A DNA stretch of 64,000 bases from Mobula hypostoma. Taxonomy: Eukaryota. Positions 1,956 to 42,956 of the stretch are shown in pieces. The notes below the pieces were generated by a model that made no database searches, was not told where the DNA came from, and saw only the letters and a program-made list of their open reading frames with translations. Position numbers and translations under genes: made by a program. The DNA is taken from positions 38,566,001 to 38,630,000 of the forward strand of contig NC_086097.1 of the NCBI RefSeq assembly GCF_963921235.1, read 5' to 3'. The stretch's first letter is position 1. Each line of letters starts with the position of its first letter.

Positions 1956-2084
1956 AACAACAGGAATTCTGCAGATGCTGGAAATTCAAGCAACACACAT
2001 CAAAGTTGCTGGTGATGCCAGGCAGCATCTGTAGGAAGAGGTGCAGTCGACGTTTCAGGCCGAGACCCTTCGTCAGGACTAACT
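1956..2084 (-). mobile_element. 129-bp Penelope-like terminal-repeat insert (hammerhead + tail) with 13-bp TSD
   Basis: AGTGAAATGGGCA is duplicated at 1943-1955 and 2085-2097. The interior matches the ends of the GIY-YIG elements at 23781 and 35394. Confidence 0.85.
2045..2080 (-). ncRNA. Minimal type I hammerhead ribozyme motif
   Basis: Minus strand reads AGTC-CTGACGA-AGGGTCTCGGCCT-GAAAC-GTC-GACT: CUGANGA and GAAA core, helix I AGUC/GACU, short helix II, GUC cleavage triplet. Confidence 0.8.
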
Positions 2085-2619
2085 AGTGAAATGGGCATTA
2101 TCTTGGGCATGAATAATTATGGATTCTTGTTAAAACACAACAATCTGGTGATTTGTTTTAGTACATATTTAATCTCTTTCTGTGCATATAAACAGGACAA
2201 CTAGTAATTTCATGTAATTTTTCCTCAACTTGGGGAAAAAAAACAAACCTAAGACGTACATGAATTTCACATGGTGGCAATTTTTGAACAACACAGCAGT
2301 GCAGATTCTAACGAAGTAATGAGACGAACTATTTAAAAAAGCAGTTTAAACGAAAGCAGAATATAGTTAACTTTGCTGGGAAAAGCGGCAACGCAATCCA
2401 AAACTATTTGTTTCTATACAACTTGGAAAGGGGGTGGGGCGGGGGAAGAGGGGTTAAATTCGGGCGTGGAGAATGCAGTAACAGGTGCGACCTTTAAAGA
2501 GTGTTTACTGAGAGTGCATAAGTAACATCGCCAAGCACGCAAACAATGTGATGGCTAAACAACAGGGCTCATATCGGTCAGGAAGTGTTGTGCACAGTAT
2601 CTGGCAACTCACTCCGAGT

Positions 2620-3060
2620 GTCATATGAAGTCCAAACACCCGACTCCGGACAATACAGCAAAAAGGCAACTGTTACCACACAACGAAGCTCCGTGCCCTC
2701 GGCCTGGGGTCACCTCCGACCGAACGCAATCCCTACCTACGGTAAAAGGCCACAGTAGCGGGGTAATGCACGGGCGAAGACTACTGTCAGCACAACTCCG
2801 GGGCGAAGACGAGAGCAGCAGCAGCGGCCCTTTACCTTCCTCGCGTATTGCCGAAGAACCGCTGTCCTGGCCGGGTCCTCCTCGCCCCGCTCACCCGGCA
2901 ACCGGGCTCCTCACCGTCGCGGGCTTATTGTCCCTCCGCACCGACCGCACCGGTGCAGCGCGCGCCCTTCCGCCGCACTACTTTCAGTCCCCGCGTTATT
3001 AGCGGCCGCTCGCGCTGGTCACCCCGAGGGAGTGAGAAAGCGAAGTGGGCTGTCAGTGGG
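2620..3060 (-). promoter_or_regulatory. CpG island / probable promoter and non-coding first exon of an unidentified gene transcribed leftward
   Basis: Only strongly GC- and CpG-rich non-repeat stretch in an AT-rich window. Minus-strand donor consensus sites near 2835 (AAG|GTAAAG), 2895 (CGG|GTGAGC) and 2914 (ACG|GTGAGG). Direction is inferred from these donors. Confidence 0.6.
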
Positions 3061-3959
3061 CTGCCCCTCAAAATGTATTGCTTTATTATAAAATGAAAAA
3101 TAAAGCATCTCTCTCACTTTTTTTTATATAAAAAACTACCGGTGTTAATCCCAGCCTTCTTAGGTGTGAAGTGATACTGAGGTGCCTGTGATGTGAAAGG
3201 TCCATTACATCAGGCACCTGGAATGTTATGTACAGAGAGAATGCATGGCATGGGACAGCTGGCCGCAGCGCTGTGCTTGAAATCGAGCTGCTGTCGCAAA
3301 CATATTTAGCTCGTTTTATTTAATTGCTGTTCTGCTCGTTCCACCTACTTCATTGCCGGCGCATATCAGTTTAACTTTAGGTTGGAAGATGTAAGCGGTT
3401 CATTGTCCCCAAGGGATTCTTCGCTGCAGATTACTTCGGAATTCATTCTTCAACTGCTTTGTACTTTATAACTCCAGTGCATGCGGTGGCAAAGCAGTTT
3501 GTGTGTAAACCGAGCATCCAAGAATGCATGAAATAAAAGAAAGTTAGAATTTATATTCCAAGGCTTTAATAAAATTGTAGGAAAGAGATTTAATAAGGTA
3601 ATTAATGCATTGGAGGGATTTGATTGAATGGAGGGATTAGTGCAGTGACGGAAGGAGGTTCCAGTATGCCGAGCTGTAAGTTTATATCAAATTCCGAATC
3701 TTTGCTTTTCGCTTTGAAAACCGCAGATGTATTACGGTCCAATCTTGCAAATTTTATCTTGGAATTTACTGTTACAGCGCTGAGTCAGTTTCATGGCAAT
3801 AACAGTATACGTACATTCCCAATATCAGATAATTCTGGATAAGCAAACATGAGAAATAGGATGTAGTTGTTACACAGTCATTCAAGAAAACTTCAATTTA
3901 CATACAGACTGGACAAACCAAATGAATTCATCTTCTGACTAATTGCAGCAGATGTCTGA

Positions 3960-4190
3960 TTAATAATATTTTTTGCTTATTAATTTTTCATTACTGTTTC
4001 ATATTTTTTGTATTTGCACAGTTTGTTTTCTTCTGCACTTTGGTTGAACTCCCATTCTGGGTGATCGTTCATTGATTCTGTTCTGGTTATTATTTTATAG
4101 ATTTAGTGGGTATGCCCACAAGAAAATGAATCCCAGGGTTGTATGTGTTGACACGTATGTCCTCTGATAATAAATTTACCTTGAACTTTG
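3960..4190 (+). mobile_element. Rex1-like LINE 3' end fragment
   Basis: T-rich 3' UTR ending AATAAATTTACCTTGAACTTTGA, similar to 10262-10653, which follows Rex1 C-terminal coding sequence. Confidence 0.5.
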
Positions 4191-5078
4191 ATGATTTGAG
4201 ACACTTTTCCAGATCAAAATGTTGAGGAACTAACTAAGGGAAAGTCCAGCTTTGATCTACTTTGATGTAATGAGACAAGGCAGATCAATAATCTTGGGTT
4301 GGAAAGTTTTAAATCAGTGTTGAAAGAGATGCAATGCAAAGTAAACTAAAGTATTCAATCTAAACAAAAAGAACGATAGAAATATGAGAGGAGAGTTGGC
4401 TTGCAACTCCTCAGATAATCAACAATTCACATTCTTTTGAAGCAATTCCTGGACAACACTCATTGCCACTTGCAACAAGAGATGGTAACCTTGATATTTA
4501 ATAGAATTGCTATCTCGCCTTACTCCCAAACCCTTTGACATCCTGAGAGTCCCTCAGTGAACAAAACCTGAAATTGGACCAAATATGTGAATACTTTCAC
4601 AAACAAGAGAAAATCTGCAGATGCTAGAAATCCGAGCAACACACACAAAATGCTGGAGGAATTCAGCAGGTTGACATGGTCTGGTCCCTGAAGTCCGTAT
4701 TCCGGTTCACAGTCCGGTCCATCAACCCTTGCTCCAGGTTTTCCTGTCTACCCTGTTTCTGTTCTTGTTGAGCTCTTATTGAGGCAGCTGATGCTCGTTG
4801 GGGCTGGCTGGATAAATACCTCCAGAGACCAGGTCGTGGCTGCTGGATTGTTCTTGTCCTTACTCCTTGTATCCCCTCCTCTGCCTTCTGTTTCCTCGCC
4901 TGAAGCCCTGCTTTGTCTTGCCGGTAACTCTTGCCTCACCTGAAGTTCTCGTCTCGCCTTGCCTTGCATTGCCTGAAGCCTTGCCTTGTTTTGTTGGTAA
5001 CTCTCGCCTCGTCTCGCCTGCAGTCTTGTCCTGGAGCCACCCTGTACCTAGCTCCTTCCTGTCCCTTGCATCCGCCCA

Positions 5079-5330
5079 GGTAAGCCAGGCCGTCTTGCTG
5101 TTACCTGCGGTTGGTTCTGTCCCTTCCTGTCCCTTGCTTCCATCGGGTAAGCCAGGCCGTCTTGCTGTTACCTGCGGTTGGTTCTGTCCCTGGCCTCCGT
5201 CGGGTAAGCCGGGCCGTCTTGCTGTTACCTGCGGTTGGTTCTGTCCCTTGCCTCCGTCGGGTAAGCCAGGCCGTCTTGCCGTTACCTGCGGTTGGTTCTG
5301 TCCCTTCCTGTCCCATGCCTCCGTCGGGTG
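5079..5330. repeat. Tandem repeat, 57-67-bp unit x4
   Basis: GGTAAGCCAGGCCGTCTTGCTGTTACCTGCGGTTGGTTCTGTCCC starts at 5079, 5146, 5203 and 5260. Confidence 0.9.
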
Positions 5331-5341
5331 GTGATCTGCGC

Positions 5342-13903: not shown

Positions 13904-16827
13904 TATTTGCAATTTTCCATCTACAAGTTGCTTTAAACAATAAAGTAACACTTAAATAATAACTCAACACATAGAACTTGAGGACAGGTGATCGAATTTA
14001 TTTTAACTGGATTCTACTTACTCTGGTTCTTTTGCAATAGATTATTTTAAATAGGAGTATAGGAATAGTTCAGTTATATAAGTGAAATAAAAAAATCATA
14101 ACTATAGAAATTCCGAAACAATACTCTTCAACTAACAGTTTAAATCAGATTAATACTATGCAGGATGTGTTCCCAGGTATAAGAGTGCTAATGGAATTAG
14201 GGCAAGAAAGGGTCATTGTAGCATTATATGTGTTGCTGACTGTGCTGCACTGTAGGAAGAATGCTGAAAACTCTTCACATTTTTGTTTTTGATCTGCTGC
14301 TGTGCTGGGACCTGACACAAATCCAGCAATGAACCACCCTCCGATTTTGGGCGGAGAAGCTGCTTGTGCAGTGAGTGGTGGTGGGATCACTCAGTATGAC
14401 AAATGGGCCTCAGGGCTGGACTCACATGATGATAGACTGCCGGGATTCTAGTCTCCCTCATCACCTCCTTATTAAATGTGATGGAAGTTGCTGTCTCCTC
14501 CTCTTTGTTTGGCAGCACAGTTATTCCCATTCTGGATGTTTCTTTTGGGTAACAAACTTGTCATTGGTTGATATTCATTGAGCTTGTTACCATAACCTCC
14601 AGGCCTGGGTGAACTGTGCAGCTAAAAAAGGAGTGGAGAGGCAGCAGCTATCATTAAGTTTAACAGTAAGTGAGATGAAAGACGATAGAATCTAGATAGA
14701 CTGTCAACACATGGAGCAGGCGCCACCAGTCTCCAGCCATGGACTGCTTTTATTAGGCCTTCCAGGTAATACCCCTGCAGAGTAGCCACAATGCTCAGCC
14801 CAACCCACCAAACGTCAGCCCTCATTGGCATTCTCTTTACACTGGGCCATGGGACATTTCATTCCTGGGGGAGCACGAGTGGTGAGCAGGGATTTCAGTA
14901 GTTTCATAGAAATCCTGACGCAGCAGTGTAAGCAAGATAGTAGGGATTTACCAAATATCCAGTACTACGGCACATGACTTTATTAAAGAACAAAGGGGTA
15001 CATTCCTGTTGAGTGTTCCGATTGTAACTTTTTTTATGAACCAGAGTTCTGTGGACTAGCACTAAATAGGGTACCAATGTATTATTCTAATTTGGTATAA
15101 ATATTTAAATATAACTAAGACGTCTCATTCTTAAATGTGCCAATCAAGGATAACAGTTATTAAATAGGAACCAAAAATATGCCCTTATTCTCAGTTCTGG
15201 AATCAGATATTAAAGACATCAGCATTTCCAATCCATATCACTGGCTTTCAGCCATTGGAACGTTAATGAAACTTCCTTGCATGCTCTGCCTAAAACAAGG
15301 CTGGGTAAACCATGAGTCTAATGCAGTCCCACATCTGACCAGGTGTATGGTGGGACAACCCAGTGATTCTCAAGGGAAGGTGTGTAAATATTTTTGAAGT
15401 ATTTTACTTTAGTTTCATGTCTTAATTATTTCCAAGTGTCTTATATTTCAAATAATTACATGTAGTTTGGACTTTGAAAGCTTATATCAAAGGCCATCAG
15501 ACATTCCAAGGTCAAGGCTGTGTTAACTTAGACCAGTTCACTGCTAAAGACCTCATATTGACTCAAGGTTTCATAGACCCAGAAAGATGGATTCTTTCAT
15601 ATCGAAAGCAGGTATATTCACATGATCCTGTCTATTAGCAAGTCAAGTATAGCAGTTAGGTGTAGGGTAAAAATCTCTCTGATCTGTCTTTTGTAGCAAA
15701 CCAGTGTAACATCTTTCCATTTCTCGCACAGTTCTCAATTGATATTATAAATTTACTTGGAATAAGGAGCACTTGCCTCCACAGAGCTCATCCCTCTGTA
15801 AGAACGAGAGTGGACTGCTCGAGTATATTTTTCAACCAGTGAATTTATATATCAAAAATTATTTTATAGACTTTATTTTATGTTAAAGTTCATAAATAGT
15901 CTATTCAACTTTAGAACAATATTAAATCTCTTCAGCACTATATTAAATCTCTTCAATAACTTTACATGATTTTTTTCATTTTTGCTTAACGTAGCTTGCA
16001 TCAATATGTTCATGTTACAATGGTAAAGCTTTATAAATAACCAATAGGTTTTAGTATACTATATAAAATATAACTTTTACTCATATATATATCATATGTA
16101 CACTATTTAGAATAATCTACATGGAGAACAAGACTGTATTGAAAGGGAACTATGTATATTCAACTGAATTGCCACATAAACCCAAAAACATGGTACACCC
16201 ACAAATTTTATCTTCATCTTTTAATCACACGTCTCATATTTTAATTCACAAATGCAGTTGAGCCCACTGCAAATGCTCACCGCAGAAATTTCTCGACTAC
16301 AATTATCACAAACTTCTAATATCTGACATCATGAACACAGGTTTCAATCTAGGGGTCTTATTACTTCATAGGACACTTATAGAATCATAGAGTGGCAAGG
16401 TTATGCAAGGGGAGGGGTGTGTGGTCTATAGAGTCCAATTATTTTAATCTATATATATTTGTCCAGTCTTTTTGAAGGCAACCTTTAAATCTGTCTCATC
16501 ATAACATGGGATATTTCAAATCTCAATGATTTGTAATGTAGAAAAGATTCATGATCCCCTAGTCAGGAATCTGTGTCACCTTGTTACTACCCTTCAATTA
16601 TTTAAAATTCCAAGTCTTTCATTATTTTAAATCCCATTTTTAAAACCATCTTCTCTTCTCCACAAAGAATAAATCCATCTCTACATTCAATTGTGACATC
16701 TCACCTCTGGATCTATTGAAGTAAATTTATTCTGTATATCTGCTTCAACCATCACATGCTTCCTGAAGTGTTCTGGTTGCCAAGCAAGAAGTTACATTAA
16801 GTGTAAGGAGATTTCAGTCATAATCAT

Positions 16828-16963
16828 AAACACAAGTGATTCTATAGATGCTGGGAATCCTGAGCAACACACACAAAATGCTAGAGGAACTCAGCAGGCC
16901 AGGGAGCATCCACTGAGGGGAATACATAGTCAACGTTCCGGACTAAGACCTTTCATCAAGACT
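16828..16963 (-). mobile_element. Degenerate Penelope-like terminal repeat with decayed hammerhead
   Basis: AAACACAAG..ATTCT.AGATGCTGG...CAACACACACAAAATGCT...GTCAACGTTCCGGACTAAGACCTTTCATCAAGACT. Confidence 0.65.
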
Positions 16964-17686: not shown

Positions 17687-18253
17687 TTACAAGCATAACA
17701 AGTTAATGCCATCATCAAAAGCAGTTTCTGACTCATTACTTAACCCAGACTGAACTTGAGCATCTTCAGATTCATAGTGTTCCTTAACGTTAACAGAATG
17801 AAAAGACACTGCAAGATTATCAATCTCCGTCAGATCTGCTACATTGTCTAAATCAGCAACACAGTCTGTGAAATAGCCTGAATGATCCACACAATTTGAA
17901 ATCAGATAATGATCTTGCTCTGAGTCTTGAACTTGCTTAATGTGTTCTCCACAAATGTCAGAATATTTGTTCTCAGTAGTATTCTGACTGTAACCAACAT
18001 CAGTGCTTAAAATTCCATTGAATCTATGATCCATTGTGTTACCAGATTCCCTGCCAAATGAAATGTCAGCAATTATGCCAGTATCTTCTTTCCACTTAGC
18101 AGCAATCTTTGCATTTTCCAAAGAATTATAGTTATTAAACTTTGCAAATTTCGATTCTTCAAACAGAGTTTTACAACCGCTGGTCCTTGGAATTTTCTCT
18201 GATTTACAGTCCAAATCTTCTTTTAGCTCGTCCAGCATAAAGCGTAATTTCTG
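17687..18253 (-). CDS. SPATA7: SPATA7 terminal coding exon (QKLRFMLDELKEDLDCK...LLCL*)
   Basis: Polypyrimidine acceptor TTGCTTTAATTTTATAG. Phase 0 matches the 36976 exon. 188 open codons to TAA at 17689-17687. The start resembles the recalled vertebrate SPATA7 EKMRHLLHVLKVDLGC motif, followed by an acidic tail. Confidence 0.85.
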   Translation of the reverse strand, partial: QKLRFMLDELKEDLDCKSEKIPRTSGCKTLFEESKFAKFNNYNSLENAKIAAKWKEDTGIIADISFGRESGNTMDHRFNGILSTDVGYSQNTTENKYSDICGEHIKQVQDSEQDHYLISNCVDHSGYFTDCVADLDNVADLTEIDNLAVSFHSVNVKEHYESEDAQVQSGLSNESETAFDDGINLLCL

Positions 18254-24967: not shown

Positions 24968-25678
24968 TCGTAATTTTTAACTATCTCTGTTTGATCGGAG
25001 GTTGTGAATCTGTCGGGTTTAATTTTTGTTTGCTTTATATGGGCAGGAAAGTTTATTTTTGATTAATTAATATGGTTGCCAAAATTTCTTTCTAACTGTG
25101 TCATTCCTTTCTTTTTCCTTGGGGATAATGGGTGGTTATTCCCTTAGTATCATTTTGCGTATTTCCTTTGAGGCCTTAAATTTCGTAGTCTTTAAATGTA
25201 CTTTTTTTTGTAGGTTTTCCTAACTAGTTTATATTAATAATTTTGTTTCTTTTTTTTTGGTTAATCATTGGATCTGTGATCTGTTACGGTTTTCTTTATA
25301 TTTTCTGGCTTTTTCTCTGTTTTAAATTGTGCTTGTCTTAATTGATCTACCTTTTTTTGTTCTTCTACTGTTTTATAACTAGCTGATCTTTTTTATATTT
25401 ACACTTTTTTTAGTGAGCGTCTATCAGAAGTCATAGGGGGTAGTTTTAGTGCTTGCTTCTTTCTGGCGGGTCTGCTTTAGATTTAGCCTTGGGGTCATGG
25501 GCTGCGGGGTGGTGGGAGGGGCTTCACGTTTTAGTTTTTTTCTTCTTGGGCTACTTACATTACTGAAGTATTGGTTGCGTTCTCCTTCCCGTTATCTCTG
25601 GTTTGTTCTGCTCCCTTTCCGGGTTCGTGGGTCGAACCTATCGTCAATCCTTTTTTTTGCGGGTTGACTTTAGGGTTT

Positions 25679-28600: not shown

Positions 28601-29460
28601 AAATTTGGAAGACTAAGGGTATTTCACGGTTTTTGGATTTATTTTTAGATGGTTCCCTTATGTCTTTTGAACAATTATCTAATAAATATAATTTACCAAG
28701 AATACATTTTTTTAGATATCTTCAAGTTAGAAATTTCCTAAGTACTATACTTTCTTCCTTTCCAATGCTTCCTCCTACATATATTTTAGATAATATAATT
28801 AACCTTAATCCATGTCAGAAAGGTGCAACGACTATTATTTATAATATTATTATGAAACTTAGGAAAGCTCCATTTGATAAGATTAGGTCAGATTGGGAAC
28901 AAGAATTGGGTTCTATTATTTCCGTGGATGACTGGGGGCAGATTTTACAATTAGTCAATACTTCCTCTATCTGTGCTAAACATTCCCTAATTCAATTTAA
29001 AGTTGTTCATAGAGCACATATGTCCAAAGATAAATTAGCTTGTTTTTATTCTCATATTAATCCTTTTTGTGATAGATGTCCGGGGCAGATAGCTTCCTTA
29101 ACTCCTATGTTTTGGTCTTGTCCTACTCTGGAAACTTTTTGGAGAGACATTTTTAATATTATCTCAAAGGTATTGAATATAGATATCTCTCCTCATCCTA
29201 TTACTGCTATCTTTGGATTACCTAAAATTTCCAGTAATCTTTCCCCTTCAGCCCGTAGAATGATTGCATTTCTTACTTTAATGGCGAAAAGATGTATCTT
29301 ACAACATTGGAAAGAGCCTAATGCTCCAACTACTTTTTTTTGGTTCTCCCAGACGATATTATGCTTAAAGTTGGAGAAAATTAGAAGTAATCTTTATGAT
29401 TCCTCATTTAAATTTGAACAGACCTGGAGATCTTTTATTCAATATTTTCATTTAATGTAA
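25679..29460 (+). pseudogene. L1 ORF2p (APE endonuclease + RT + C-terminal Cys domain), disrupted
   Basis: SWNTNGL, LQETH, GGDLN, SRIDYF, SDHAP, KAPGPDGF, YRPISLLN, GTRQGCPLSP, LYADD and CDRC...FWSC motifs, with stops and frameshifts. Confidence 0.92.
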
Positions 29461-30342
29461 TTTTTTTTTTCTCTTTTGTTGCATATTTATATTCCCTTCT
29501 TGCTTTTTTTAACTGTTTTTAATGGAGGTCGGGTTTGAGGACGTGATTTTAAGTTTTTTAACTCCACCTGTTTCCAAGTTAGCCCATTGCTTTGCTTTGC
29601 TTTTAGTTTAGTTGCACAGTGGGTTTTTTTTGGGTTTTTTTTTTCCTTTTCTCTATTGATATATATATATATATATATAAAATTAGTATACTATTAATTT
29701 ATCTTATTATTTTATGTTTAAACTGCACTGTTTGTATCAATTTTTTTCTGTATTAATATCTCCTGTAATTTCTAACAGTGTATTAGTGCTTATATGGTTT
29801 ACCTTTTGTATACTTATTTAATAAAAAGATTTAAAAAGAAAGAAAAGAGATTTGGAAGTGGGAGGGGGAGGGGGAGATCCAAAATGATAGGAGAAGACAG
29901 GAGGGGGAGGGATGGAGCCAAGAGCTGGACAGGTGATTGGCAAAGGGGATATGAGAGGATCATGGGACAGGAGGCCTAGGGAGAAAGACAAAGGGGGGGG
30001 GACCCAGAGGATGGGCATGAACATCGACTTCTCTAACTTCCGCTAATGCCCCACCTCCCCCTCGTACACCATCTGTTATTTATTTTTATACATACATTCT
30101 TTCTCTCACTCTCCTTTTTCTCCCTCTGTCCCTCTGACTATACCCCTTGCTCATCCTCTGGGGCCCCCCCCCCCTTTGTCTTTCTCCCTGGGCCTCCTGT
30201 CCCATGATCCTCTCGTATCCTCTTTTGCCTATCACCTGTCCAGCTCTTGGCTCCATCCCTCCCCCTCCTGTCTTCTCCTATCATTTCGGATCTCCCCCTC
30301 CCCCTTCAACTTTCAAATCCCTTACTCACTCTTCCTTCAGTT

Positions 30343-30378
30343 AGTCCTGATGAAGGGTCTCAGCCTGAAATGTTGACT
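30343..30378 (+). ncRNA. Minimal hammerhead ribozyme motif (variant)
   Basis: AGTC-CTGATGA-AGGGTCTCAGCCT-GAAAT-GTT-GACT. Core intact, with CpG-decay substitutions in helix III and the triplet. Confidence 0.6.
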
Positions 30379-30467
30379 GTACCTCTTCCTAGAGATGCTG
30401 CCTGGCCTGCTGCATTCACCAGCAACGTTGATGTGTGTTGCATAAACAATTTTGAATCTTGAAGTAC

Positions 30468-31225
30468 TAAATACAAGAGAATCAGCAGATACTATACATG
30501 TCGAGCAACACCCACAAAATGCTGCAGGAATTCAGCAAGTCAGGCAGCTTTTATGGAGAGGTATAAACAGTTGACATATTGGGCCAAGACCTTTCATCAG
30601 GACTGGAAAGGAAGAGAACAGAAGCCAGCATCGGGAGGGGTTAGGTGGGGAAGGATGGAGTACAAGTTGGCAGGTGATAGTTGAGATCAGGGGAAGGTTG
30701 GTGGGTAGGAGAAGGGGATGAAGTAAGAAGCTGGGAAGTGATAGGTGGAAGAGGTAAAGGGCTGAAGAAGTTATATGATATGAGAGGATAGTGGACCATG
30801 GAAAAAAGGGTAGAAGGAGGGGTACCAGGGGGAGGTGATCGGCAGGAGAGGGAGGAGGGGTGAAAGGGTATCTGGGGCTTTTTCTCCTGCATCTCTTCCT
30901 CTGACTCTGCCTCCTTTTCTCTCCAGGTTCCTTCCTGTAGAACATATTGACACTTATGTTTTGCTAGTGTTGCACACAATATTTGCTAGGAGGGCAGGTG
31001 AGGAGAAGGGTGATAGGGAAACAAGGAAGGGGAATGGCAAAAGAGAGGCGGGGGAGAAATTACAAAAAGTTAGAGATATCAATGTTCATGTCATCAGGCT
31101 GGAGGCTACCCAGACAGAAATGAGGTGTTGCTCCTCCAACCTGAGTGTGGCCTCATCAGACCAACATGTCGAAATGTGAATGGAATGTTGAATGGGAATA
31201 GATGCCATCGGGCAATTCTGCCTTT
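30468..31225 (-). mobile_element. Older Penelope-like fragments with an internal inverted piece
   Basis: Terminal repeat with decayed hammerhead (30570-30604), purine-rich UTR, and GIY-YIG C-terminal remnant at about 31060-31160. Segment 30870-30980 appears to be in the opposite orientation. Confidence 0.65.
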
Positions 31226-32778
31226 TGTGGTGGAAATGGGGAAGTAAGTTACTTTCTTAAAATTATATTGCTTTCGTTTAATGTTTTTAAAGTTGTTTTT
31301 GTTTTATTTGTCATTCACTTTATTTTCCCAAATGTAATAGAATATCCCACTTTACTGAGTTTTTAAATTCTGCATGAAATAAATATTTTTAAAATTGTTG
31401 GCCAATGACAGTTTTGAAGACTGAAGCTCCAGTCTGAGCTTTGCTTGAATCAGGGAATTTCAGCTACTCCATGTTCAGGGCCTGCACGCTTAACCACCTG
31501 AAGCTCAGCTATCTCCAGGCCTCATCACTGAATTCTGGACTACTGAGGATAGTGAATGAGGCCCTCCATATCCAGGACAGGAAACTTGGGCGTATGGGAA
31601 TCAGGGACAATATTTGTTTATTTAGATGTATAGCACGGAATTGGCCCTTCCAGTCCTTTGAGCTGCGCCACCCCAACAACCTCGATTTAACACTCTTAAT
31701 CACAGGACAATTTACAAAGACCAGTTAAACTACCCGGTATGTCTTTGGACTGCGGAAGGAAATCGGAGCACCTGGGGAAAACCGACATATCCCATGAGGA
31801 GGACATACCTCCTTACAGATGGCAATGGGTCCATGCCAGTTTAACTTACGCAATAAATTGACAAACCCTGTATAGGTTTCAATTTTGTGTTTCGGTAAGG
31901 CTACATTTTTTGTAAAAATTTAATGGAATCAGCATGAAACATTGAGGCTATTTAAGTAAAGCCTAAAATTTGCATGAATTTCTCAAATGCTATTCTTCAG
32001 GTGCAAATATTTAGGAAATTACAAGCAAAGAAAATCCTATAAAGTTTCCAATAGCCGTCATTAATTTTCTTTTTTGCTTTATTTCTATTGCCAAGATTCA
32101 TCAATATAGATACTCAGTTAAGTACCAGTTAGGGATATTTCAACAACAGAAGAGAAAAACAATCCCTCAAATGCATTATTGCAATTAGCATGTGCAATTT
32201 TTCATGCTTCAGACACATCGATTTACTCATTAGCACAGATGCAAAATTTAAATATGAACAACAAATCAAACCAGCTTACACCTACTGACACTTCAGCTCT
32301 TAAAAGAGAAGTAACGATTGATCTGGAAGTTATTGTGCACCCTGGGGAGCACTGACATCAACAGAGGTAGTACAGAGACAGAGACACTGCTTTGAAATTA
32401 CTGACCACAAAATCCTAGTGGAAGAAATGAACAGGAGGTCTTGCTCACATGGGTGGTCAGCAGGCCAATAAGGACAAAAAAAAAATCATTTTATTATAAA
32501 GTGGTCAAACAATTTGATGTTCACAGTGATTCACCAAAAGACTGGTTTCAGTGTTGGGGAAAAAATTAACCATCTCACATCTCTGGTCAAGAATAGTGGA
32601 AAGACTACTATATTCCATCTGCCAACTGCAGCAGCTGTTTTGAGAAGCTCATGTCATGCCTACAAGCTGTCAGCAGAGGAGAGAGTGCTGGTAATTATGG
32701 CGACAGCTGTTACAGAATCAATTATTGAACGATGAGAAAAAAAAAGTGCAGTACTGTCAGAGATGCAGTACATTTATA

Positions 32779-34560: not shown

Positions 34561-35491
34561 GGGTGTATATATATACACACACACGTATAAATCTGTGCCT
34601 AACACTTTTGCACAGTACCGCCTTCTTTTTCATTACATTCTGCTTAACCCTCTTCTCCCACAAACTTTACTTCCCTGTCTTACCTGGTTCTGCATGTCAC
34701 CTAAGTGAAGATCCTGATTATGTATCCTTATATTATACCATAATGGAAAAAAAAATAGGAGCAGGAGCTGACCACCCACTCCCTTGTACTTACTCCAACA
34801 TCTAATATATTTCTTTATTTTTTAAAGAATATCTAGCTTTTCTTTAAATACATCCAATGATTGAGCCTCCAGGGGACAATAGGCTTCAGAATCCCTATCA
34901 ACTTTTAGGATATAAGGGAATCACAATGTGGGGCTTAAAGTTTAAGAAAGGCAAACTTTGAAGGACTGATAAATAAATTGGGATGTAATATTAAGCAAAA
35001 AGACCTACATTGCAATAATTCAAAATAAAAGTTACCTTGTACAATCAAAAGCAAGAGGAATGGTCCAAAAGACACTTTTAGGAATAGGTCACTTGTGACA
35101 TTCAGCAAACATTGTTAATAAATGGCACAGGTAAAAGTATCATGTTTTACAAAAATCTTGCACAAATACAGGGTAATTGGAGTAGGACAGCTACCGAAAA
35201 TGTTTAAAAAAGTAAAAGTTCCAATATAAAAATAAAACACTCAATGTTCCAAGCAAATAACTGTCTCGATTTCTATTTGAGGGTTACCATTACAATTTGC
35301 ATTAACAATCACCAATTATCTGTGCCACTTACATTTCCTGGAAAGAAGTCCTATTGTCATCTTCCCTCCAAAAATGATTTAGGTTCTGAACTTAAACAAC
35401 AGGAATTCTGCAGATGCTGGAAATTCAAGCAACATACATCAAAGTTGCTGGTGAACGCAGCAGGCCAAGCAGCATCTATAGGAAGAGGCGC

Positions 35492-35527
35492 AGTCGACGT
35501 TTCAGGCCGAGACCCTTCGTCAGGACT
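35492..35527 (-). ncRNA. Minimal type I hammerhead ribozyme motif
   Basis: Reverse complement reads AGTCCTGACGAAGGGTCTCGGCCTGAAACGTCGACT. Confidence 0.8.
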
Positions 35528-36568
35528 AACTGAAGGAAGAGTGAGTAAGGGATTTGAAAGCTGGAGGGGGAGGGGGAGATGCAAAATGATAGGAGAAGAC
35601 AGGAGGGGGAGGGATAGAGCCGAGAGCTGGACAGGTGATAGGCAAAAGGGGATACGAGAGGATCATGGGACAGGAGGCCTAGGGAAAAAGACGGGGGGGG
35701 GTGACCCAGAGGATGGGCAAGAGGTATATTTAGAGGGACAGAGGGAGAAAAAGGAGAGTGAGAGAAAGAATGTGTGCATAAAAATGAGTAACAGCTGGGG
35801 TACGAGGGGGAGGTGAGGCCTAGCGGAAGTTAGAGAAGTCAATGTTCATGCCATCAGGTTGGAGGCTACCCAGACGGAATATAAGGTGTTGTTCCTCCAA
35901 CCTGAGTGTGGCTTCATCTTTACAGTAGAGGAGGCCGTGGATAGACATGTCAGAATGGGAATGGGATGTGGAATTAAAATGTGTGGCCACAGGGAGATCC
36001 TGCTTTCTCTGGCGGACAGAGCGTAGATGTTCAGCAAAGCGGTCTCAGCAAAGCGCTTTGCTGAACATCTACGCTCTGTCCGCCAGAGAAAGCAGGATCT
36101 CCCAGTGGCCACACATTTTAATTCCACATCCCATTCCCATTCTGACATGTCTATCCACGGCCTCCTCTACTGTAAAGATGAAGCCACACTCAGGTTGGAG
36201 GAACAACACCTTATATTCCGTCTGGGTAGCCTCCAACCTGATGGCATGAACATTGACTTCTCTAACTTCCGCTAGGCCCCACCTCCCCCTCGTACCCCAG
36301 CTGTTACTCATTTTTATGCACACATTCTTTCTCTCACTCTGCTTTTTCTCCCTCTGTCCCTCTAAATATACCTCTTGCCCATCCTCTGGGTCACCCCCCC
36401 CCCGTCTTTCTCCCTAGGCCTCCTGTCCCATGATCCTCTCGTATCCCCTTTTGCCTATCACCTGTCCAGCTCTCGGCTCTATCCCTCCCCCTCCTGTCTT
36501 CTCCTATCATTTTGCATCTCCCCCTCCCCCTCCAGCTTTCAAATCCCTTACTCACTCTTCCTTCAGTT

Positions 36569-36604
36569 AGTCCTGACGAAGGGTCTCGGCCTGAAACGTC
36601 GACT
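36569..36604 (+). ncRNA. Minimal type I hammerhead ribozyme motif
   Basis: AGTC-CTGACGA-AGGGTCTCGGCCT-GAAAC-GTC^GACT. Predicted cleavage after 36600. Confidence 0.8.
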
Positions 36605-36975
36605 GCGCCTCTTCCTATAGATGCTGCTTGGCCTGCTGCGTTCACCAGCAACTTTGATGTATGTTGCTAGGTTCTGAACTTTCCTGTTCTATTTCTTGGA
36701 CCTGTCTGAATCCTAACAAAGCACTGAAGATTTATGGAATTCATTAATTTAGAATAACATTGATTATAATGTTAATTGATTGCTCACTTGTGGTAAATTG
36801 ACTGTTCCGTTGACATGCTAGGGGTCAGAGAGAACAACATGTTAGGAAGGACTAATTTTTAAGGGGTATATAAAAACAGGAGGAGTAAATCTAATTTTAA
36901 AGCTGCATATTCTTTTTACATTGGATAAAATAACTGAATATTTTGAAAATACTGAACACAGAATTCTATACTCAC

Positions 36976-37033
36976 TTCATCTAATCGATGCTTGTTTTCT
37001 TCTATTCGACGTTCAAATATATTTTCTAAAACC
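36976..37033 (-). CDS. SPATA7: SPATA7 internal exon (VLENIFERRIEENKHRLDE)
   Basis: TTTATTTAG acceptor, GTGAGT donor, 58 bp, phase 2 to 0. Resembles the recalled SPATA7 FLERLFERHIKQNKHLEE. Confidence 0.92.
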
Positions 37034-37125
37034 CTAAATAAAGATGAAGTTTTTTTTAACCCATTAGTAATATGTTCTCATTACAAAGAGTCACTTTGGT
37101 AAGTCAATGTGATAATTCTTTACAA

Positions 37126-37315
37126 CACAGACAAGAGAAAATCTGCAGATGCTGGAGATCCAAGCAAAACACACAAAGTGCTGGAGGAACTCGGCAGACC
37201 GGGCAGCATCTATTGAAAAGAATAAACAGTTGACATATCGGGCCGACACTCTCATTAGGACTGGAGAAAAAGGATGAGAAGTTAGAGTAAAAAAGGTGGG
37301 AGGAGGAGGACAAAG
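37126..37315 (-). mobile_element. Degenerate Penelope-like terminal repeat
   Basis: ACAAGAGAAAATCTGCAGATGCTGG...GCTGGAGGAACTC...GTTGACATATCGGGCCGACACTCTCATTAGGACT (decayed hammerhead). Confidence 0.65.
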
Positions 37316-38229
37316 GTAAAGCCCTTACTGAGGACAGAACGTTCTGCCTCAGAGAAGGGAAGGTCAGAAGGGATAGTGAAATTGAGGAAGGGGGAGGAAC
37401 ACCACCTGTATATGTATCCGTATAGAGGTCAACCAATCCATTCAATCACAAATGTAGTGTGCTTAAACACTGTATTAATGATGCACTCATCATAAATACT
37501 CAAAATTTCCCCTAGTCCAACATCATTTATATCTTTATATCTTACAATGTATGTTGGAGAAAAGAACTATACATAGTTAATTAAGGTCACAAATTTATCC
37601 GGCTGTATCTTAGGTACCCTTGTTTACCAATGTAGTATGCACCATCAACCTAATGTATTACTTAAATAAAAACAGAAAATGCTGGGAACACCTCACAGCT
37701 CAGTTAGCATGTGTGGAGAAACAGAATTAACATTACAGGTTCAAGTCACAACTAAGATGGAGAGAAAATAAGTCAGTATTAAGCATGATAGAAGGATGGA
37801 TAGAACAATGGGAACATCTCTCAGAGGGTAAGACGCAGACATAATCTGTAAATGAGGTCATCTAGCTGGGGGTTAACAGAGCAGTTAAGGAAAGAGAATA
37901 TGTTCCTTTACTACCAAGAGCTATGAAACAAGGACATTAGAGAACAGAAAAAGCAATGCAAAAATAGAAAATGCTATATTGTTTCTGCTTTAAGAAAAAA
38001 GTCATATACTCCCATACCAACTCCCCCTTCTAAGCGACTCATCACATATGAAGTGCTTTCTAGCTTTTCTAAGATTAAATTAACTGCTTCCATAAATACA
38101 TTTTTTTAAGCAGGAAACCTCCAAACTGGTGACATCAACAAAACAAACTTAATTTATACCTAAAATTATTTAAATTAGAGGCATAGAGTGAAATTAGAAA
38201 GCTGTGCAATGTGGAAAATAAATTAATAC

Positions 38230-38307
38230 CTGTTTGAAAATAATCCTCGAGTTAATATCTCGCTGGTGACATCAGAGATGAATTCCAGATACTTTAATTC
38301 CTCTTCC
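38230..38307 (-). CDS. SPATA7: SPATA7 internal exon (EEELKYLEFISDVTSEILTRGLFSNR)
   Basis: TTTTTCTCCAG acceptor, AG|GTATT donor, 78 bp, phase 2 to 2. Closely matches the recalled SPATA7/HSD3 motif EEELLYLSFIEDVTDEILKLGLFSNR. Confidence 0.94.
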
Positions 38308-38621
38308 CTGGAGAAAAATGAACATCGGCAATGAATAATCTGTAAATACATTTGCTTGTAGCAGTAGAGAGCTGAAGAAAATAACAGCCAATTTAAATCA
38401 TATTAACCATTTACAGAGTCTCAAGTGTATGGGTTTGAAACATACAATGTGATATATACTAATAAAACAATTAAAATAATCAGAACTGCAGAAACTGAAA
38501 TATGAAGCAAAGATAGAAACACTGGAAGAATTCAGTCAGACAAGCATCATTTGTGGAAAGAGAAACTAACCAACACTTTTGATCAGAATTCCTTCCTCAG
38601 ATCTGGTGAGATGTGAATGGG

Positions 38622-39032
38622 TAAACACGAGGAATTCTGCAGATGCTGGAAATTCAAGCAACACACATCAAAGTTGAAGAAGCATGAATGTGCCATTTTC
38701 CAGCAAAGCTAAAATTTGTAATGTAATAGGAAATGTTTACTAAAACAGAATATATCAAACAAAAACAGAAATATTGGAAGAATTCAGAAAGTCAAGAAGC
38801 ATCTGAAGAAAAAGAAGTCAGTCAACATTTTTGATCCTATCAGGAGATAAAGAGCATGTATATCGAGAATGAGTCTCAGTACCCATGCTGCTGATCACCT
38901 GATGAAAATGAGTCTCAAACTTCATCCTTTGATCAGAAGAGACATAAGAGACTGCAGATGCCAGAATCTGGAGAAAAAATAAACTGCTGGAGTAACACAG
39001 CATATGTGGAGGCAAAGTGTTCACAGCAACTT
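38622..39032. mobile_element. Penelope-like insertion containing an inverted copy of nearby genomic DNA
   Basis: TSD TGAGATGTGAATGGG (38607-38621, 39033-39047). Element tail at 38622-38676. 38674-39021 is the reverse complement of 39377-39725. Confidence 0.85.
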
Positions 39033-39158: not shown

Positions 39159-39247
39159 AGGGTCTCGGCCTGAAACGTCGACTGCGCTTCTTCCTATAGA
39201 TGCTGCCTGGCCTGCTGCGTTCACCAGCAACTTTGATGTATGTTGCT
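39159..39247 (+). mobile_element. Short Penelope-like terminal-repeat fragment (3' half of hammerhead)
   Basis: AGGGTCTCGGCCTGAAACGTCGACT...GATGTATGTTGC, bracketed by TGCTGGAGG direct repeats inside an older related palindrome. Confidence 0.75.
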
Positions 39248-39939
39248 GGAGGAACTCACTGGGTTAGCCAGAATCTGTGGAGGCAAAGGGATAGTTGATG
39301 TTTTGGGTCGAGGCCCTGCATCTGGAATAATCGAGACATTAGTTTTGATGCAAGTTCTTGATCTAAAATGTCGACCAACACTTTGCCTCCACAGATGCTG
39401 TGTTACTCCAGCAGTTTATTTTTTGCTCCAGATTCTGGCATCTGCAGTCTCTTACGTCTCTTCTGATCAAAGGATGAAGTTTGAGACTCATTTTCATCAG
39501 GTGATCAGCAGCATGGGTACTGAGACTCATTCTCGATACACATGCTCTTTATCTCCTGATAGGATCAAAAATGTTGATTGACTTCTTTTTCTTCAGAAGC
39601 TTCTTGACTTTCTGAATTCTTCCAATATTTCTGTTTTTGTTTGATATATTCTGTTTTAGTAAACATTTCCTATTACATTACAAATTTTAGCTTTGCTGGA
39701 AAATGGCACATTTATGCTTCTTCAAGTCTTTGCAAGACGCTAACAATATTATTATGCCCAAGGAAAATACTGACATCATTGCAAAATTGCTGGCATTAGA
39801 AAAAACAATTAACATATTAAAAATATATCTCATCAAAGGAGAGCAGAAAATCAAACCACCTCAAGAATTCTGTGTTAATATTTTGAAAGGTTTTGCTGGA
39901 AATTACAACCATAATTAAATCAAATGTTTTAATACTTAC

Positions 39940-39993
39940 TCAGCCTCAATTTTTCTCATAATTGGTGACTTGATTCTATTGTTTGACGATGAC
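39940..39993 (-). CDS. SPATA7: SPATA7 internal exon (SSSNNRIKSPIMRKIEAE)
   Basis: TTTTCTCTTTAATCCATTAG acceptor, GTAAGT donor, 54 bp, phase 2 to 2, in frame with the 38230 exon. Confidence 0.88.
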
Positions 39994-40764
39994 CTAATGG
40001 ATTAAAGAGAAAATAAGTGATTAGACGAAGCAAGTAACTTGAAAAATTAACATAGTTTAAGCTATAGTAACCTGCAATATTTCTTTATTGCATCAGCTTC
40101 TACTCTTTTAATTCACTGTTATTGTTTAAAGTACTCAACATAACAAGAGTTTGATTTCTACAATTTTATTTCACTGAAATTCCAGTAACATTTTTTGCAC
40201 TGATGTACACTTAAATAAAATATGTAGGCTGTATGTGAATTAAAATAACTATTAAATAGAAATATTTCAAATTCCATTGGACATTAGTTTTTACTAAAGA
40301 CTCATTTGTCAATAACATAGTTGTTTACTGAAGTAAAGTTTCAAAATATTTTAAATGTTTTGAAGTTCAAAGTACATTTATTATCAAAGAACCTTTATTA
40401 TACAACCTTGAGATATATCTTCTTAGAGGCAGCCACAAAACAAAGAAACCCAATAGAACCCATTAAAAAAGACTGTTAAACACCCAATGTGCAAAGATAA
40501 AAGAACAAATCTTGCAAATTGGGTTATTCATTGGTAGAAGCTTCTTGGTAGTTAATGAGCAGGCCTCATTTATTTTAACTTGGTTTGGTTTGGGAATTAA
40601 GATTTAGATTTATCAATTTAGATCTTAGTCTTTGGGTACTAAATCCAAATAGTGATTTTTCCTTACTCCCAGTGAGACAAAGCTTTGGAAATGCACTGAT
40701 TATGAAAAACCCGCTGAACTGTTTTGAGTTTTTTTTTAAAAAACCTAGAATAGTACATTTCTTA

Positions 40765-42005
40765 CACTGGACAGCAATTTTTTTCAAAAGTTTCTTCAGA
40801 AAAGTTTTTGTGGTTATAATAGACTTGTATCATGTAGAAATTTGGAGAGACGAAATTAACTTTTATTGACTATAATGTGTTTAATTGCATAATGGTGCTG
40901 ATGCTTTGCAATAGTTCAACTAAGTTAAAAGTATTTTGTTAATGGTTTTCATTTGTACTCAGTGTTTGAGGCTTCTCACTTAAGTATCCAACAATAATCA
41001 GCCAGCATTGATGCCAGCTACCCTGATTCGGTTCTCCATGACCACAATGTCCTGGTGAAACCTTTCACCATTCTTGTCCTTGACAGCACCAAGATTTGCA
41101 GGGAAAAAGTCTAAATGGGAATTCAGAAAATGAATCTTTAGTGATATGGTGTACTTCATATGCTTGAAGCATGTTGTCTACCAGCTGTATGTAGTTTGGT
41201 GCTATGTAGTTGACAAGAAATTTTTCAACAACATCCTCAAACGCCTTCCCTGCGATTTTCTCCCATCCCACTAGAGGTTCTTTGAATTGCCTGCCATTGA
41301 GGACCTGTTTGATTTAAGGACCAACAAAAATGCCTTCCTTAATTCTGGCATCAATTATTCTGGGAAACATCTGTCTTAAATATCAAAATCCTTCATGGAA
41401 ATTTTTGTGCCTGATGACAGCAGAATCCATCCTTATAGTCCTGACCCCAGTAATTCTACCTTTGCTTTTGACAAACCCAGTTCTCTGACCAGGTTATTTA
41501 ACTCAGGCTGAGTTGTCAGATGAGACAGATGAGATTTTAAGCATATACTCGCCACTCGTGGCTGTTGCAAATTTGACGAGACACTTTGCTATCACTGCTA
41601 CTCCTGAAAATACAATACCTTATTTTAATGAGTGCACACAATATGCTATGCATACCGTTTACATGTATATTGGTGATTGCAAACCAATACACATGTAAAT
41701 GCAATGCATAGAACAATGTGTGCATGATGCTTTTATAGCCTTTCTAAAACCTGTTCTGCCATGCAGCATCTGCCCTGCCGAAGCATGCCCAGGCACGCTT
41801 GGACAAGATAGTAAACTTTTCAACTTACATTGTGGGCAACATTTCAATTGACTTGAATTATGAATTGAAATAACAAATATAGGCAATTTTTTTTAAAAAA
41901 GGGTACGCGATAGGGAAATTTCATGGTGATTTTCATGATCAGCAACCTAAAATCCATAAGGTACACCCAAGAGTATTCAAGAAGCAAATTCTTTGCCTTC
42001 CAGTG
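40765..42005 (-). mobile_element. Chapaev3-like (CMC) DNA transposon deletion derivative
   Basis: CACTGGA...TCCAGTG termini with a TTA duplication (40762-64, 42006-08). Minus-strand transposase remnant EKIAGKAFEDVVEKFLVNYIAPNYIQLVDNMLQAY, followed by a LKIHFL..HLDFFPANLGAV..GERFHQDI-type sequence. Confidence 0.75.
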
Positions 42006-42956
42006 TTACCAAAGTACATATACAGTATACAATCCTGAGATTTGTCCTCCTGCAGGCAGCCACAAAACAGGGAAATACCATGGAAACCAGTTAAAAGAAA
42101 ACATTAAACTTCAACGTACTAAAAAAAAGAACAAATCACACAAACACCAAAAAGCAGGCAAATAACACAAGGAATATTAAACATCAAACTGCAGAGACCC
42201 CGAAATGGTCCATAAGTAAAATCCACCAAGTCAGTTCAGTTTAGCATTGTCAATGACTGCAGGCCTGAATGGCAGAGCCAGTAACACATTGAAATGACGC
42301 CATCAAATCACGAAAGTACGAAAAGAGTAACCAGAATCACATGGAACAGAAACTGCAGAGTCGTGCAAAACAAGTTGGAGCACATTCAGCGCGGAGGACA
42401 TTAAAGATAAAACCACGAAGTCCTCCGAAAAGGACTCCCACAGCCATGAGGCACGCCGCTGAACTTTTTGAACCTGCACCCTCCTTCAGCAGGAGTGAGA
42501 GGGACATCGGTCAAACACAGGAGCTGATGATGAGTTTGCATTCCACCATTAAGAAACAATGGCCGCACACTCTTCTCCCAACCTCGCCAAGTGACCGAGG
42601 AGATAGCAAAGCACCAGATGGAGGTGGTGGTGGTAGTGGTGGGAGGAGGAGCTGCTGCTGCCTGCAGAACGTCACCATTGGTCACATCAGAAAATACAAT
42701 ACACAGAAATGATAGGCTCCCTAATAGCACTGAGGAATAAAGGGTCTGAGTCCTGAGCAACACACAAATTGTTGGAGGGACTTAGCAAATCGGGCAAAAT
42801 CTATGGAGGGGAATAATCTGTCAATATTTTGGACTAAGACACTTCATCAGAACTGGAAATGAAGGGATAAAAGCCAGAATAAGAATGTAGGAGGAAGGAA
42901 TGGAGTACAAGATAGCAGGTGATAGAAGAGCTGGGGGGTGGAAGGTGGGTGGGTGC

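What the first reader, a model, noticed from the sequence alone, without database searches (positions are those of the whole stretch)
2045..42853. Family of minimal hammerhead ribozymes carried by Penelope-like terminal repeats
Seen: the 36-nt motif AGTC-CTGA(C/T)GA-AGGGTCTCGGCCT-GAAAC-GTC-GACT is intact at 2045-2080(-), 35492-35527(-) and 36569-36604(+). It is mutated at 23884-23919(-) (triplet GUG) and 30343-30378(+), partial at 39159-39183, and decayed near 16930, 30570, 37230 and 42820. Established: Penelope-like elements carry minimal type I hammerheads whose tiny self-complementary helix III (here AC/GU) favours cleavage as dimers. Inference: minus-strand copies lie sense within SPATA7 pre-mRNA and could dimerise or cleave. 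About ten copies in 64 kb implies a very large ribozyme load in this genome.
Basis: partly seen in the sequence, partly recalled or inferred. Interest (0 to 1): 0.7.

Follow-up and report, generated by a model that had tools for sequence, protein, structure and literature searches.

The report
Ray Penelope retroelements carry minimal hammerheads
These are real copies of a small self-cutting RNA motif that Penelope-like jumping genes are already known to carry, here in a ray genome, and most copies in and around the SPATA7 gene are decayed or folded shut, so the finding is correct but mostly ordinary.

Summary
Observation confirmed. The 36-mer is exact at 2045, 35492 and 36569; a minimal-hammerhead descriptor gives 4 hits against 0.055 expected. 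Carriers are 5'-truncated Neptune-type Penelope-like elements (GIY-YIG end, inverted arms, one-sided tail, 9-15 bp target duplications) in a Mobula-like ray. This arrangement was published in 2014, and this scan noted it before, twice in this genome. Corrections: the six young copies are four insertions; helix II is best read as bulged A plus GGGU/GCCU; 2045 lies 15.6 kb beyond the SPATA7 stop; the only intact sense intronic copy (35492) is predicted fully paired in a ~615-bp hairpin with its inverted arm. Inserts end 68-102 nt past the cut site, so templates were uncut there. The motif is conserved between subfamilies but decays fast at CpGs after insertion; no covariation found. Cleavage of SPATA7 pre-mRNA is unlikely. 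Residual interest: perhaps ~10^5 intact motifs per genome (one-window extrapolation), well above published vertebrate counts, and an A-to-G excess on the element's sense strand in two probable RNA runs. New member of a known kind; interest 0.3.

The parts
1955..2084 (-). 130-bp micro-insertion of the young subfamily (A): starts 4 nt upstream of helix I, ends in the tail; outside SPATA7
   Evidence: target duplication 1943-1955 / 2085-2097; alignment
2045..2080 (-). intact minimal hammerhead motif
4592..4670 (-). older-subfamily fragment holding only the part downstream of the hammerhead and the tail
16820..16963 (-). decayed older-subfamily (B) copy beginning at helix I; 730 nt past the SPATA7 stop
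17687..18253 (-). SPATA7 last coding exon and stop
   Evidence: 96% to Mobula birostris SPATA7-like; tblastn; acceptor
23786..30441 (.). one inverted subfamily-A insertion: minus arm 23786-23948 + 29845-30020 (tail, hammerhead 23884-23919 with GUG), plus arm 30014-30441 (hammerhead 30343-30378, no tail), split by a later L1
   Evidence: 15-bp target duplication 23766-23780 / 30442-30456; L1 duplication 23939-23949 / 29845-29855; blastn
23950..29844 (+). L1-type LINE inserted into the Penelope arm (APE, RT, zf-RVT domains; frameshifted)
30462..31227 (-). decayed subfamily-B copy with hammerhead remnant 30569-30604 and GIY-YIG remnant 31066-31227
35394..36668 (.). very young head-to-head inverted insertion: minus arm 35394-36041 with 34-nt tail 35394-35427, plus arm 36050-36668 without tail; arms 99.2% alike over 615 nt
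   Evidence: 14-bp target duplication 35380-35393 / 36668-36681
35492..35527 (-). intact hammerhead motif, sense to SPATA7, predicted sequestered by the inverted arm; cut site between 35496 and 35495
36054..36275 (+). C-terminal 73 codons and stop of the Penelope-like RT/GIY-YIG ORF (mirror at 35820-36041 minus)
   Evidence: 95% to a Mobula hypostoma protein with YIDD, CX4CX2C linker and GIY-YIG
36569..36604 (+). intact hammerhead motif, antisense to SPATA7: helix I 36569-72/36601-04, CUGACGA 36573-79, bulged A 36580, helix II 36581-84/36589-92, GAA 36593-95, ACGU palindrome 36596-99, C17 36600
36976..37035 (-). SPATA7 coding exon
37115..37300 (-). decayed subfamily-B copy, hammerhead remnant 37227-37262
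38229..38312 (-). SPATA7 coding exon
38621..38677 (-). subfamily-A tail fragment joined to an inverted copy (38669-39021) of nearby host DNA (39377-39732)
39162..39243 (+). subfamily-A micro-insertion beginning inside helix II, inserted into an older copy
   Evidence: 9-bp target duplication 39153-39161 / 39244-39252
39244..39452 (.). head-to-head pair of a third, older subfamily (C): hammerhead remnants 39293-39328(-) and 39341-39376(+), each starting about 6 nt upstream of helix I
39939..39995 (-). SPATA7 coding exon
42745..45513 (-). longest subfamily-B remnant: hammerhead remnant 42819-42854, broken RT-thumb/linker/GIY-YIG pieces 44264-44383 and 44884-45513
54212..54334 (-). SPATA7 coding exon (gene continues beyond the window)

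Best explanation
The motifs are minimal type I hammerheads that sit in the pseudo-LTR of an abundant Neptune-type Penelope-like element family of myliobatiform rays. They are selected only in the master elements, where tandem copies (probably helped by the element's own protein) let two motifs pair their ACGU palindromes into a dimer and cut after GUC, late or occasionally in the cycle. New copies are made by reverse transcription that starts 68 or about 102 nt downstream of the cut site on uncut RNA and stops early, often folding back to give an inverted second arm. Once inserted, the copies are passengers: inverted arms lock the motif in long duplex RNA (a likely ADAR substrate), single copies lack a partner, and CpG deamination removes core bases. 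Shown: sequence, anatomy, family link, decay pattern. Inferred: dimer cleavage, protein help, editing, and inactivity in SPATA7.
For: Element anatomy: ORF end 95% to a protein with RT, CX4CX2C linker and GIY-YIG; inverted arms with a tail on one side only and 9-15 bp target duplications at 4 of 4 young hammerhead-bearing insertions, as drawn for PLEs in PMC8557442. Master-level conservation: in all 4 runs laid, loose ends pile up at both edges of helix I (35491; 35525-35527), so other subfamilies match at 85% only across the motif; A-versus-B identity is 0.67-0.78 in the motif against 0.36-0.60 upstream and 0.52-0.64 just downstream (4 copies). Position 11.1 is C (G-C pair) in 76% of depth in X13 and 21% in X1, keeping the pair in the bulged-A register described in PMC4209133. 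Post-insertion decay: 5 of 9 differences between the two arms of the 23786-30441 event fall in the 36-nt motif; 29 of 63 CpG cells against 24 of 182 other cells differ across 7 copies. Sequestration. Uncut template and protein-assisted cleavage agree with PMC11167929.
Against: No cleavage was measured. No two-sided covariation: 0 of 8 pairs in 8 distinct rows, score below 495 of 500 shuffles. The region 41-80 nt downstream is about as conserved as the motif (0.57-0.81), so conservation is not unique to it. The catalytic-like dimer evaluates at -9.5 kcal/mol against -28.3 for the predicted best duplex and -10.0 for one monomer hairpin (nearest-neighbour energies ignore tertiary contacts). The young subfamily has G-U at the usually conserved 10.1-11.1 pair. 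No full-length or tandem master lies in the window, and clade assignment rests on the linker motif, not a tree.
Confidence: 0.8

Rival explanations
1. One reading: sense copies in SPATA7 introns pair with each other or with abundant element RNA in trans and cut the pre-mRNA, affecting SPATA7 output.
For: One intact sense copy lies in the last intron; element-like RNA seems abundant (4,549 and 9,005 contigs in probable RNA runs X9, X10), so trans partners exist; 23884 keeps an intact core that could act as the enzyme strand.
Against: The antisense arm is transcribed first and pairs with all 36 bases; helix probabilities 0.000 with the arm and 0.001-0.002 even without it; partner 11.6 kb away; 4-bp helix I and 4-bp intermolecular helix III are weak; published minimal motifs cut slowly even as dimers and need element protein; the unique flank had no cover in either RNA run.
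Confidence: 0.07
2. The motif is now a non-catalytic signal (promoter, splice-acceptor, protein-binding or RT-pausing element) whose hammerhead core is a relic in this family.
For: Loss of the G10.1-C11.1 pair in about 79% of depth in the window's species; no covariation; catalytically dead mutants of an anole PLE hammerhead still supported insertion in vitro and no RNA-seq ends were found at its cut site; 3 insertion events start 0-6 nt upstream of helix I and none at the cut site.
Against: Every core base, the GUC triplet and the palindrome are kept in the youngest copies and across subfamilies and two organisms; only 1 of 37 shown variant rows inside the element falls in the motif, and it keeps the pair.
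Confidence: 0.12
3. The short copies are a non-autonomous retrozyme family that amplifies through small circular RNAs cut and closed at the hammerhead.
For: Micro-insertions of 80-145 bp exist (1955-2084, 16820-16963, 39162-39243); one tail-to-cut-site joint (35495 to 35394, depth 52) and short tandem joints around the motif appear in DNA run X1; retrozymes were reported in one chondrichthyan.
Against: No head-to-tail array in the window; copies have variable 5' ends and carry ORF ends; that joint is 1 of 12 shown of 81, at about 1e-5 of local depth, and none like it was among the rows shown for the RNA runs; inserts do not begin or end at the cut site.
Confidence: 0.06

Closest known systems
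Minimal hammerheads (min-HHR) in the pLTRs of metazoan Penelope-like elements (Cervera and De la Pena 2014, PMC4209133; parts 1-2 of 4 read, supplement file 2 searched, file 1 not searchable)
   Same: Type I, 4-5 bp helix I, no loop 3, palindromic 15.2-16.2, extra nucleotide between 9 and 10.1, mostly single truncated copies, pairs on opposite strands 100-700 bp apart, reported in Neptune elements of fishes.
   Different: Helix II only 4 bp with two G-U pairs; G-U rather than G-C at 10.1-11.1 in most copies of this species; host is a ray (no shark or skate terms in supplement file 2); estimated load about ten times the 4,000-9,000 called remarkable there.
Neptune clade of endonuclease-positive PLEs (Craig et al. 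2021, PMC8557442; passages read)
   Same: C-terminal GIY-YIG with CCHH-type residues, CX2-5CxxC linker, 5' truncation, adjacent inverted copy, 30-40 bp tail at one end.
   Different: No microsatellite targeting seen here; targets are AT-rich with clear duplications. No tree was built, so Nematis is not formally excluded.
Poseidon element of Anolis carolinensis (Frangieh et al. 2024, PMC11167929; parts 1-2 of 4 read)
   Same: Two RT start points downstream of the hammerhead that define the tail; uncut RNA is the template.
   Different: Other clade (no linker finger); cleavage there was shown to be protein-assisted, here untested.
Non-LTR retrozymes (Li et al. 2026, bioRxiv 10.64898/2026.07.22.740005; parts 1-2 of 5 and passages read; supplements closed)
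   Same: Type I hammerhead derived from PLE pLTRs; present in one chondrichthyan.
   Different: Those are head-to-tail tandem units; these are dispersed, often inverted, ORF-end-bearing fragments.
A-to-I edited Penelope repeats in lizard and Xenopus tropicalis (PMC5625713, PMC10636886; passages read)
   Same: Penelope-derived RNA as a major ADAR target.
   Different: Here only a count-level hint from contigs, confined to the element's sense strand.

Membership tests
Minimal type I hammerhead (min-HHR) | Core CUGANGA ... GAAA with U16.1 and H17 | tested here: met
   Intact in 3 of 12 clear copies
Minimal type I hammerhead (min-HHR) | Open helix I of 4-5 bp closing the motif | tested here: met
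   AGUC/GACU, 84% of cells paired in 8 distinct rows; subfamily similarity ends at its edges in 4 of 4 runs
Minimal type I hammerhead (min-HHR) | Extra nucleotide between 9 and 10.1, then helix II | tested here: met
   Bulged-A register -6.0 against -4.6 kcal/mol; 81% against 62.5% cells paired
Minimal type I hammerhead (min-HHR) | Conserved G10.1-C11.1 pair | tested here: inconclusive
   G-U in all 6 young window copies; G-C in 21% (X1) and 76% (X13) of depth and in 5 older copies at 11.1
Minimal type I hammerhead (min-HHR) | Palindromic helix III without loop (dimer-competent) | tested here: met
   ACGU at 36596-36599
Minimal type I hammerhead (min-HHR) | Compensatory covariation in helices | tested here: not met
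   0 of 8 pairs with two-sided change; sample is 8 rows, mostly decayed, so weak
Minimal type I hammerhead (min-HHR) | Self-cleavage after H17 as a dimer | not testable with these tools
   No assay; only contigs were available, which cannot show RNA ends (table 6 empty)
Rfam hammerhead families | Score at gathering threshold | tested here: not met
Endonuclease-positive Penelope-like element | Single ORF with RT and C-terminal GIY-YIG | tested here: met
   Window ORF end 67-95% to proteins with YIDD-type motif and weak GIY-YIG Pfam hits below cut-off; window holds only the C-terminal part
Endonuclease-positive Penelope-like element | 5' truncation, adjacent inverted copy, tail at one end, target duplication | tested here: met
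Endonuclease-positive Penelope-like element | Partial tandem forming pLTR-ORF-pLTR | tested here: inconclusive
   No full-length copy in the window; no genome held
Neptune clade | CX2-5CxxC finger in the RT-endonuclease linker | tested here: met
   Present in 6 of 6 homologues checked; eroded in the window remnant at 44884-45300
Neptune clade | RT phylogeny | not tested
   No named reference set was fetched
Non-LTR retrozyme | At least two head-to-tail units each with a full hammerhead, no ORF | tested here: not met
   No such tandem in the window

The most novel reading that the evidence does not exclude
Myliobatiform rays carry on the order of 10^5 intact minimal hammerheads, about ten times any vertebrate count in the papers read, and helix I marks the 5' edge of a discrete RNA unit (a start site or a spliced-exon edge, as in Drosophila virilis Penelope) that is retrotransposed as a 105-135 nt SINE-like piece; the host disarms this load by duplex formation with A-to-I editing of the sense RNA and by CpG decay of the catalytic core. 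That would make rays a natural test bed for what PLE hammerheads do.
Probability: 0.2. Interest if true: 0.55.

Novelty: new member of a known kind. Interest (0 to 1): 0.3.

Why it matters
The role of hammerheads in Penelope-like elements is still open (PMC8557442 calls it unclear). A young, very abundant family with dated subfamilies, natural G-C and G-U variants at 10.1-11.1 and RNA data would allow population-scale tests: where copies start relative to the cut site, whether the core is kept only in masters, and whether editing hits the core. For SPATA7 itself it probably matters little, beyond a 615-bp intronic hairpin about 300 nt from an exon. The ray genome papers searched do not mention Penelope or ribozymes in their main text, so this family may be under-annotated.

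Tried and rejected
Rfam at gathering and E-value thresholds: no hammerhead match; the miRNA-family hits at 35984-36111 are the palindrome centre. No genome is held, so no direct copy count. A degenerate 28-nt motif found 0 loci in metagenome and viral contigs. A homologue P0004 found no solved structure. Summed contig depth (9.0e6 at 35504 against 6.23 on unique flank, X1) is not a copy number; divided by the largest overlap factor of 31 it gives about 46,000, used only as a consistency check. The 2- to 5-fold higher RNA/DNA depth ratio downstream of the motif is a gradient that contigs cannot rank; not used. The single tail-to-cut-site joint in X1 is not taken as evidence of circles. The splice-acceptor reading was tested for specificity: 5 other YAG sites with 80% or more pyrimidines lie in the same 300 nt, so it stays a weak lead. 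Folding of the motif-plus-tail RNA is no more stable than shuffles (z -0.27). A motif search for a neighbouring phosphatase gene gave nothing. Lunse et al. 2016 (PMC5785218) is not held; I saw only its title and a review's summary, and it may hold shark or ray counts. Searches listed no paper on hammerheads in ray PLEs; that is not proof that none exists.


Full report
Observation. The 36-mer is exact at 2045-2080(-), 35492-35527(-) and 36569-36604(+); 23884(-) has two changes including G at position 17; 30343(+) has four, all CpG-type; 39159-39183 lacks the first core strand. Decayed copies at 16928, 30569, 37227 and 42819 form an older subfamily (B), and two more at 39293(-) and 39341(+) a third (C). 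A relaxed type I descriptor gave 4 sites against a mean of 0.055 (maximum 1) in 200 Markov controls. Rfam gave no hammerhead hit.

Host and gene. The ORF at 17690-18253(-) is 96% identical to Mobula birostris SPATA7-like (best of 12 hits). tblastn placed five exons at 54334-54212, 39995-39939, 38312-38229, about 37035-36976 and 18253-17690, all with GT/AG borders. The host is thus a Mobula-like ray. The 2045 copy is 15.6 kb past the stop and beyond eight poly(A)-type hexamers found within 3.2 kb of it; the 16928 copy lies between the first two.

Carrier. The 73 codons at 36054-36272 are 95% identical to the C-terminus of a Mobula hypostoma protein; all 12 hits share this end. Five of 10 proteins scanned gave weak GIY-YIG matches, below Pfam's cut-off. 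Six of 6 checked carry a CX2-5CxxC linker and five a YIDD-type motif, the Neptune signature in PMC8557442 (passages). Broken pieces of the same ORF lie upstream of the 30569 and 42819 remnants. Insertions show the Penelope anatomy: 35394-36668 is a head-to-head pair (99.2% over 615 nt) with a 34-nt tail on one side and a 14-bp target duplication; 23786-30441 is a second such pair with a 15-bp duplication, later split by an L1 with its own 11-bp duplication; 1955-2084 and 39162-39243 are micro-insertions with 13- and 9-bp duplications. So six young motifs are four events.

Fold. Helix I AGUC/GACU, core CUGACGA, a bulged A, helix II GGGU-CUCG-GCCU, GAA, ACGU, C17. The bulged-A register is favoured by energy (-6.0 against -4.6), by pairing across 8 distinct rows (81% against 62.5%) and by the natural variant at 35504, which gives G10.1-C11.1 in 21% of depth in X1 and 76% in X13. 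This matches the published consensus (PMC4209133). The ACGU palindrome allows only an intermolecular helix III; the catalytic-like dimer scores -9.5 kcal/mol against -28.3 for the best duplex, in line with the low activity reported for such motifs.

Conservation. Two levels must be kept apart. Between subfamilies the motif is kept: in 4 of 4 runs loose ends pile up at 35491 and 35525-35527, the edges of helix I (24 rows shown, 1,143 not); 1 of 37 shown variant rows inside the element lies in the motif (51 rows not shown); A-to-B identity is 0.67-0.78 in the motif, 0.36-0.60 upstream, 0.52-0.64 just downstream, but 0.57-0.81 at 41-80 nt downstream. After insertion it decays faster than its flanks: 5 of 9 arm-to-arm differences of the 23786-30441 event lie in 36 of 128 nt; 29 of 63 CpG cells against 24 of 182 others differ in 7 in-register copies (37227 and the partial copy left out; cells not independent); G12 is lost in 4 of those 5 older copies. 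No two-sided covariation was found (0 of 8 pairs).

Mechanism. Inserts end 68 nt (no tail) or 102 nt (tail) downstream of the cut site, so their templates were not cut there. The anole Poseidon study found the same: two internal RT starts define the tail, dead ribozyme mutants still insert, cleavage needs the protein, and no RNA-seq ends map to the cut (PMC11167929). I infer that cleavage, if any, acts on tandem master transcripts. No window copy begins at the cut site; three events (2045, 16928, the 39293/39341 pair) begin 0-6 nt upstream of helix I and one inside helix II. An earlier scan note (e1-7858714) saw the same in another genome; with about a dozen events my test is only partial.

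SPATA7. The only intact sense intronic motif is 35492. In the pre-mRNA its antisense arm comes first, and the folded 1,321-nt stretch pairs all 36 bases with 36569-36604; helix probabilities are 0.000 with the arm and 0.001-0.002 without, against 0.41 for the 2045 copy in its own context. Cleavage of SPATA7 RNA is therefore unlikely.

Load. Three exact copies in 64 kb extrapolate to about 47,000 per Gb (Poisson 95% 9,700-137,000; two of three are one event), or 1-2 x 10^5 for the 2.2-4.0 Gb range given for batoids. Run X1, which may be the window's source, laid 114,808 contigs on 601 nt, 24,985 at 99% or more, and organism C gave 16,352; these are not copy numbers. Published figures read: about 4,000 in coelacanth and 9,000 in Xenopus tropicalis, at most 14,255 active tandem retrozymes in axolotl. 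An unchecked scan note gives over 150,000 for this genome (e1-7807631).

RNA. X9 and X10 (RNA by guess; two samples, one study, not the DNA sample) laid 4,549 and 9,005 contigs on the element and none on the unique flank. T>C places on the plus strand, that is A>G on the element's sense strand, number 20 of 75 and 19 of 71 against 5 of 64 and 5 of 66 in X1 and X13 (Fisher p 0.004 and 0.006 against X1), while A>G stays at 11-12. This suggests A-to-I editing of mainly sense RNA; neighbour preference does not explain the strand bias. The positions were not shown, so I cannot say whether core adenosines are hit. Penelope editing is known in lizard and X. tropicalis.

Verdict. A correct catch of a kind described in 2014 and already noted five times by this scan. 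New member of a known kind. Interest 0.3, held up by the apparent scale and by the testable leads on 5' ends and editing. Supplements that I could not see (file 1 of PMC4209133, the bioRxiv supplements, Lunse 2016) may already list shark or ray motifs. Hammerhead numbering and the rule that G17 is not cleaved are recalled textbook knowledge.

Noticed in passing
window 36547-36570 (+) and matching places at 35492, 23884, 30343, 30569, 37227, 42819: A branch-point-like pentamer, pyrimidine tract and YAG abut helix I in all 7 copies that keep their upstream flank, like the intron end at helix I in D. virilis Penelope; but 5 other YAG sites with similar tracts lie in the same repeat.
   Followed up: partly
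window 38669-39021 and 39377-39732: A 356-bp, 97.5% inverted duplication of host DNA starts directly at a Penelope tail fragment (38621-38677), as if cDNA synthesis switched from element RNA to nearby genomic DNA.
   Followed up: partly
window 21580-21944: A 365-bp palindrome (97.5%) with no Penelope match in the scans run; origin unexplained.
   Followed up: no
window 39293-39328(-), 39341-39376(+): Both arms of the subfamily-C pair read CUGAUGC-A, with C where A9 is expected: a core variant or a change before the duplication.
   Followed up: no
window 23950-29844: A near full-length L1-type element with frameshifts inserted into the pyrimidine tract of a Penelope arm, 30 nt upstream of its hammerhead.
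   Followed up: partly
window 51442-53980(-), 55368-58296(+), 58575-59853(-): Three related CR1-type LINE pieces, 71-85% alike, in opposite orientations in a SPATA7 intron; further long duplex potential.
   Followed up: no
proteins P0004, P0006, P0007, P0011: The Penelope ORF end is annotated inside host-gene isoforms of Hypanus and Hemitrygon, so this repeat contaminates ray gene models or is exonised.
   Followed up: no
run X1, joints 35495-35394, 35527-35491, 35527-35490, 35538-35497: Rare head-to-tail joints around the motif, one joining the tail end exactly to the base after the cut site; very low depth, DNA run only among rows shown.
   Followed up: no
window 5059-5733: Two short tandem-like arrays (57-67 nt and 33-59 nt units) unrelated to the hammerhead family.
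   Followed up: no
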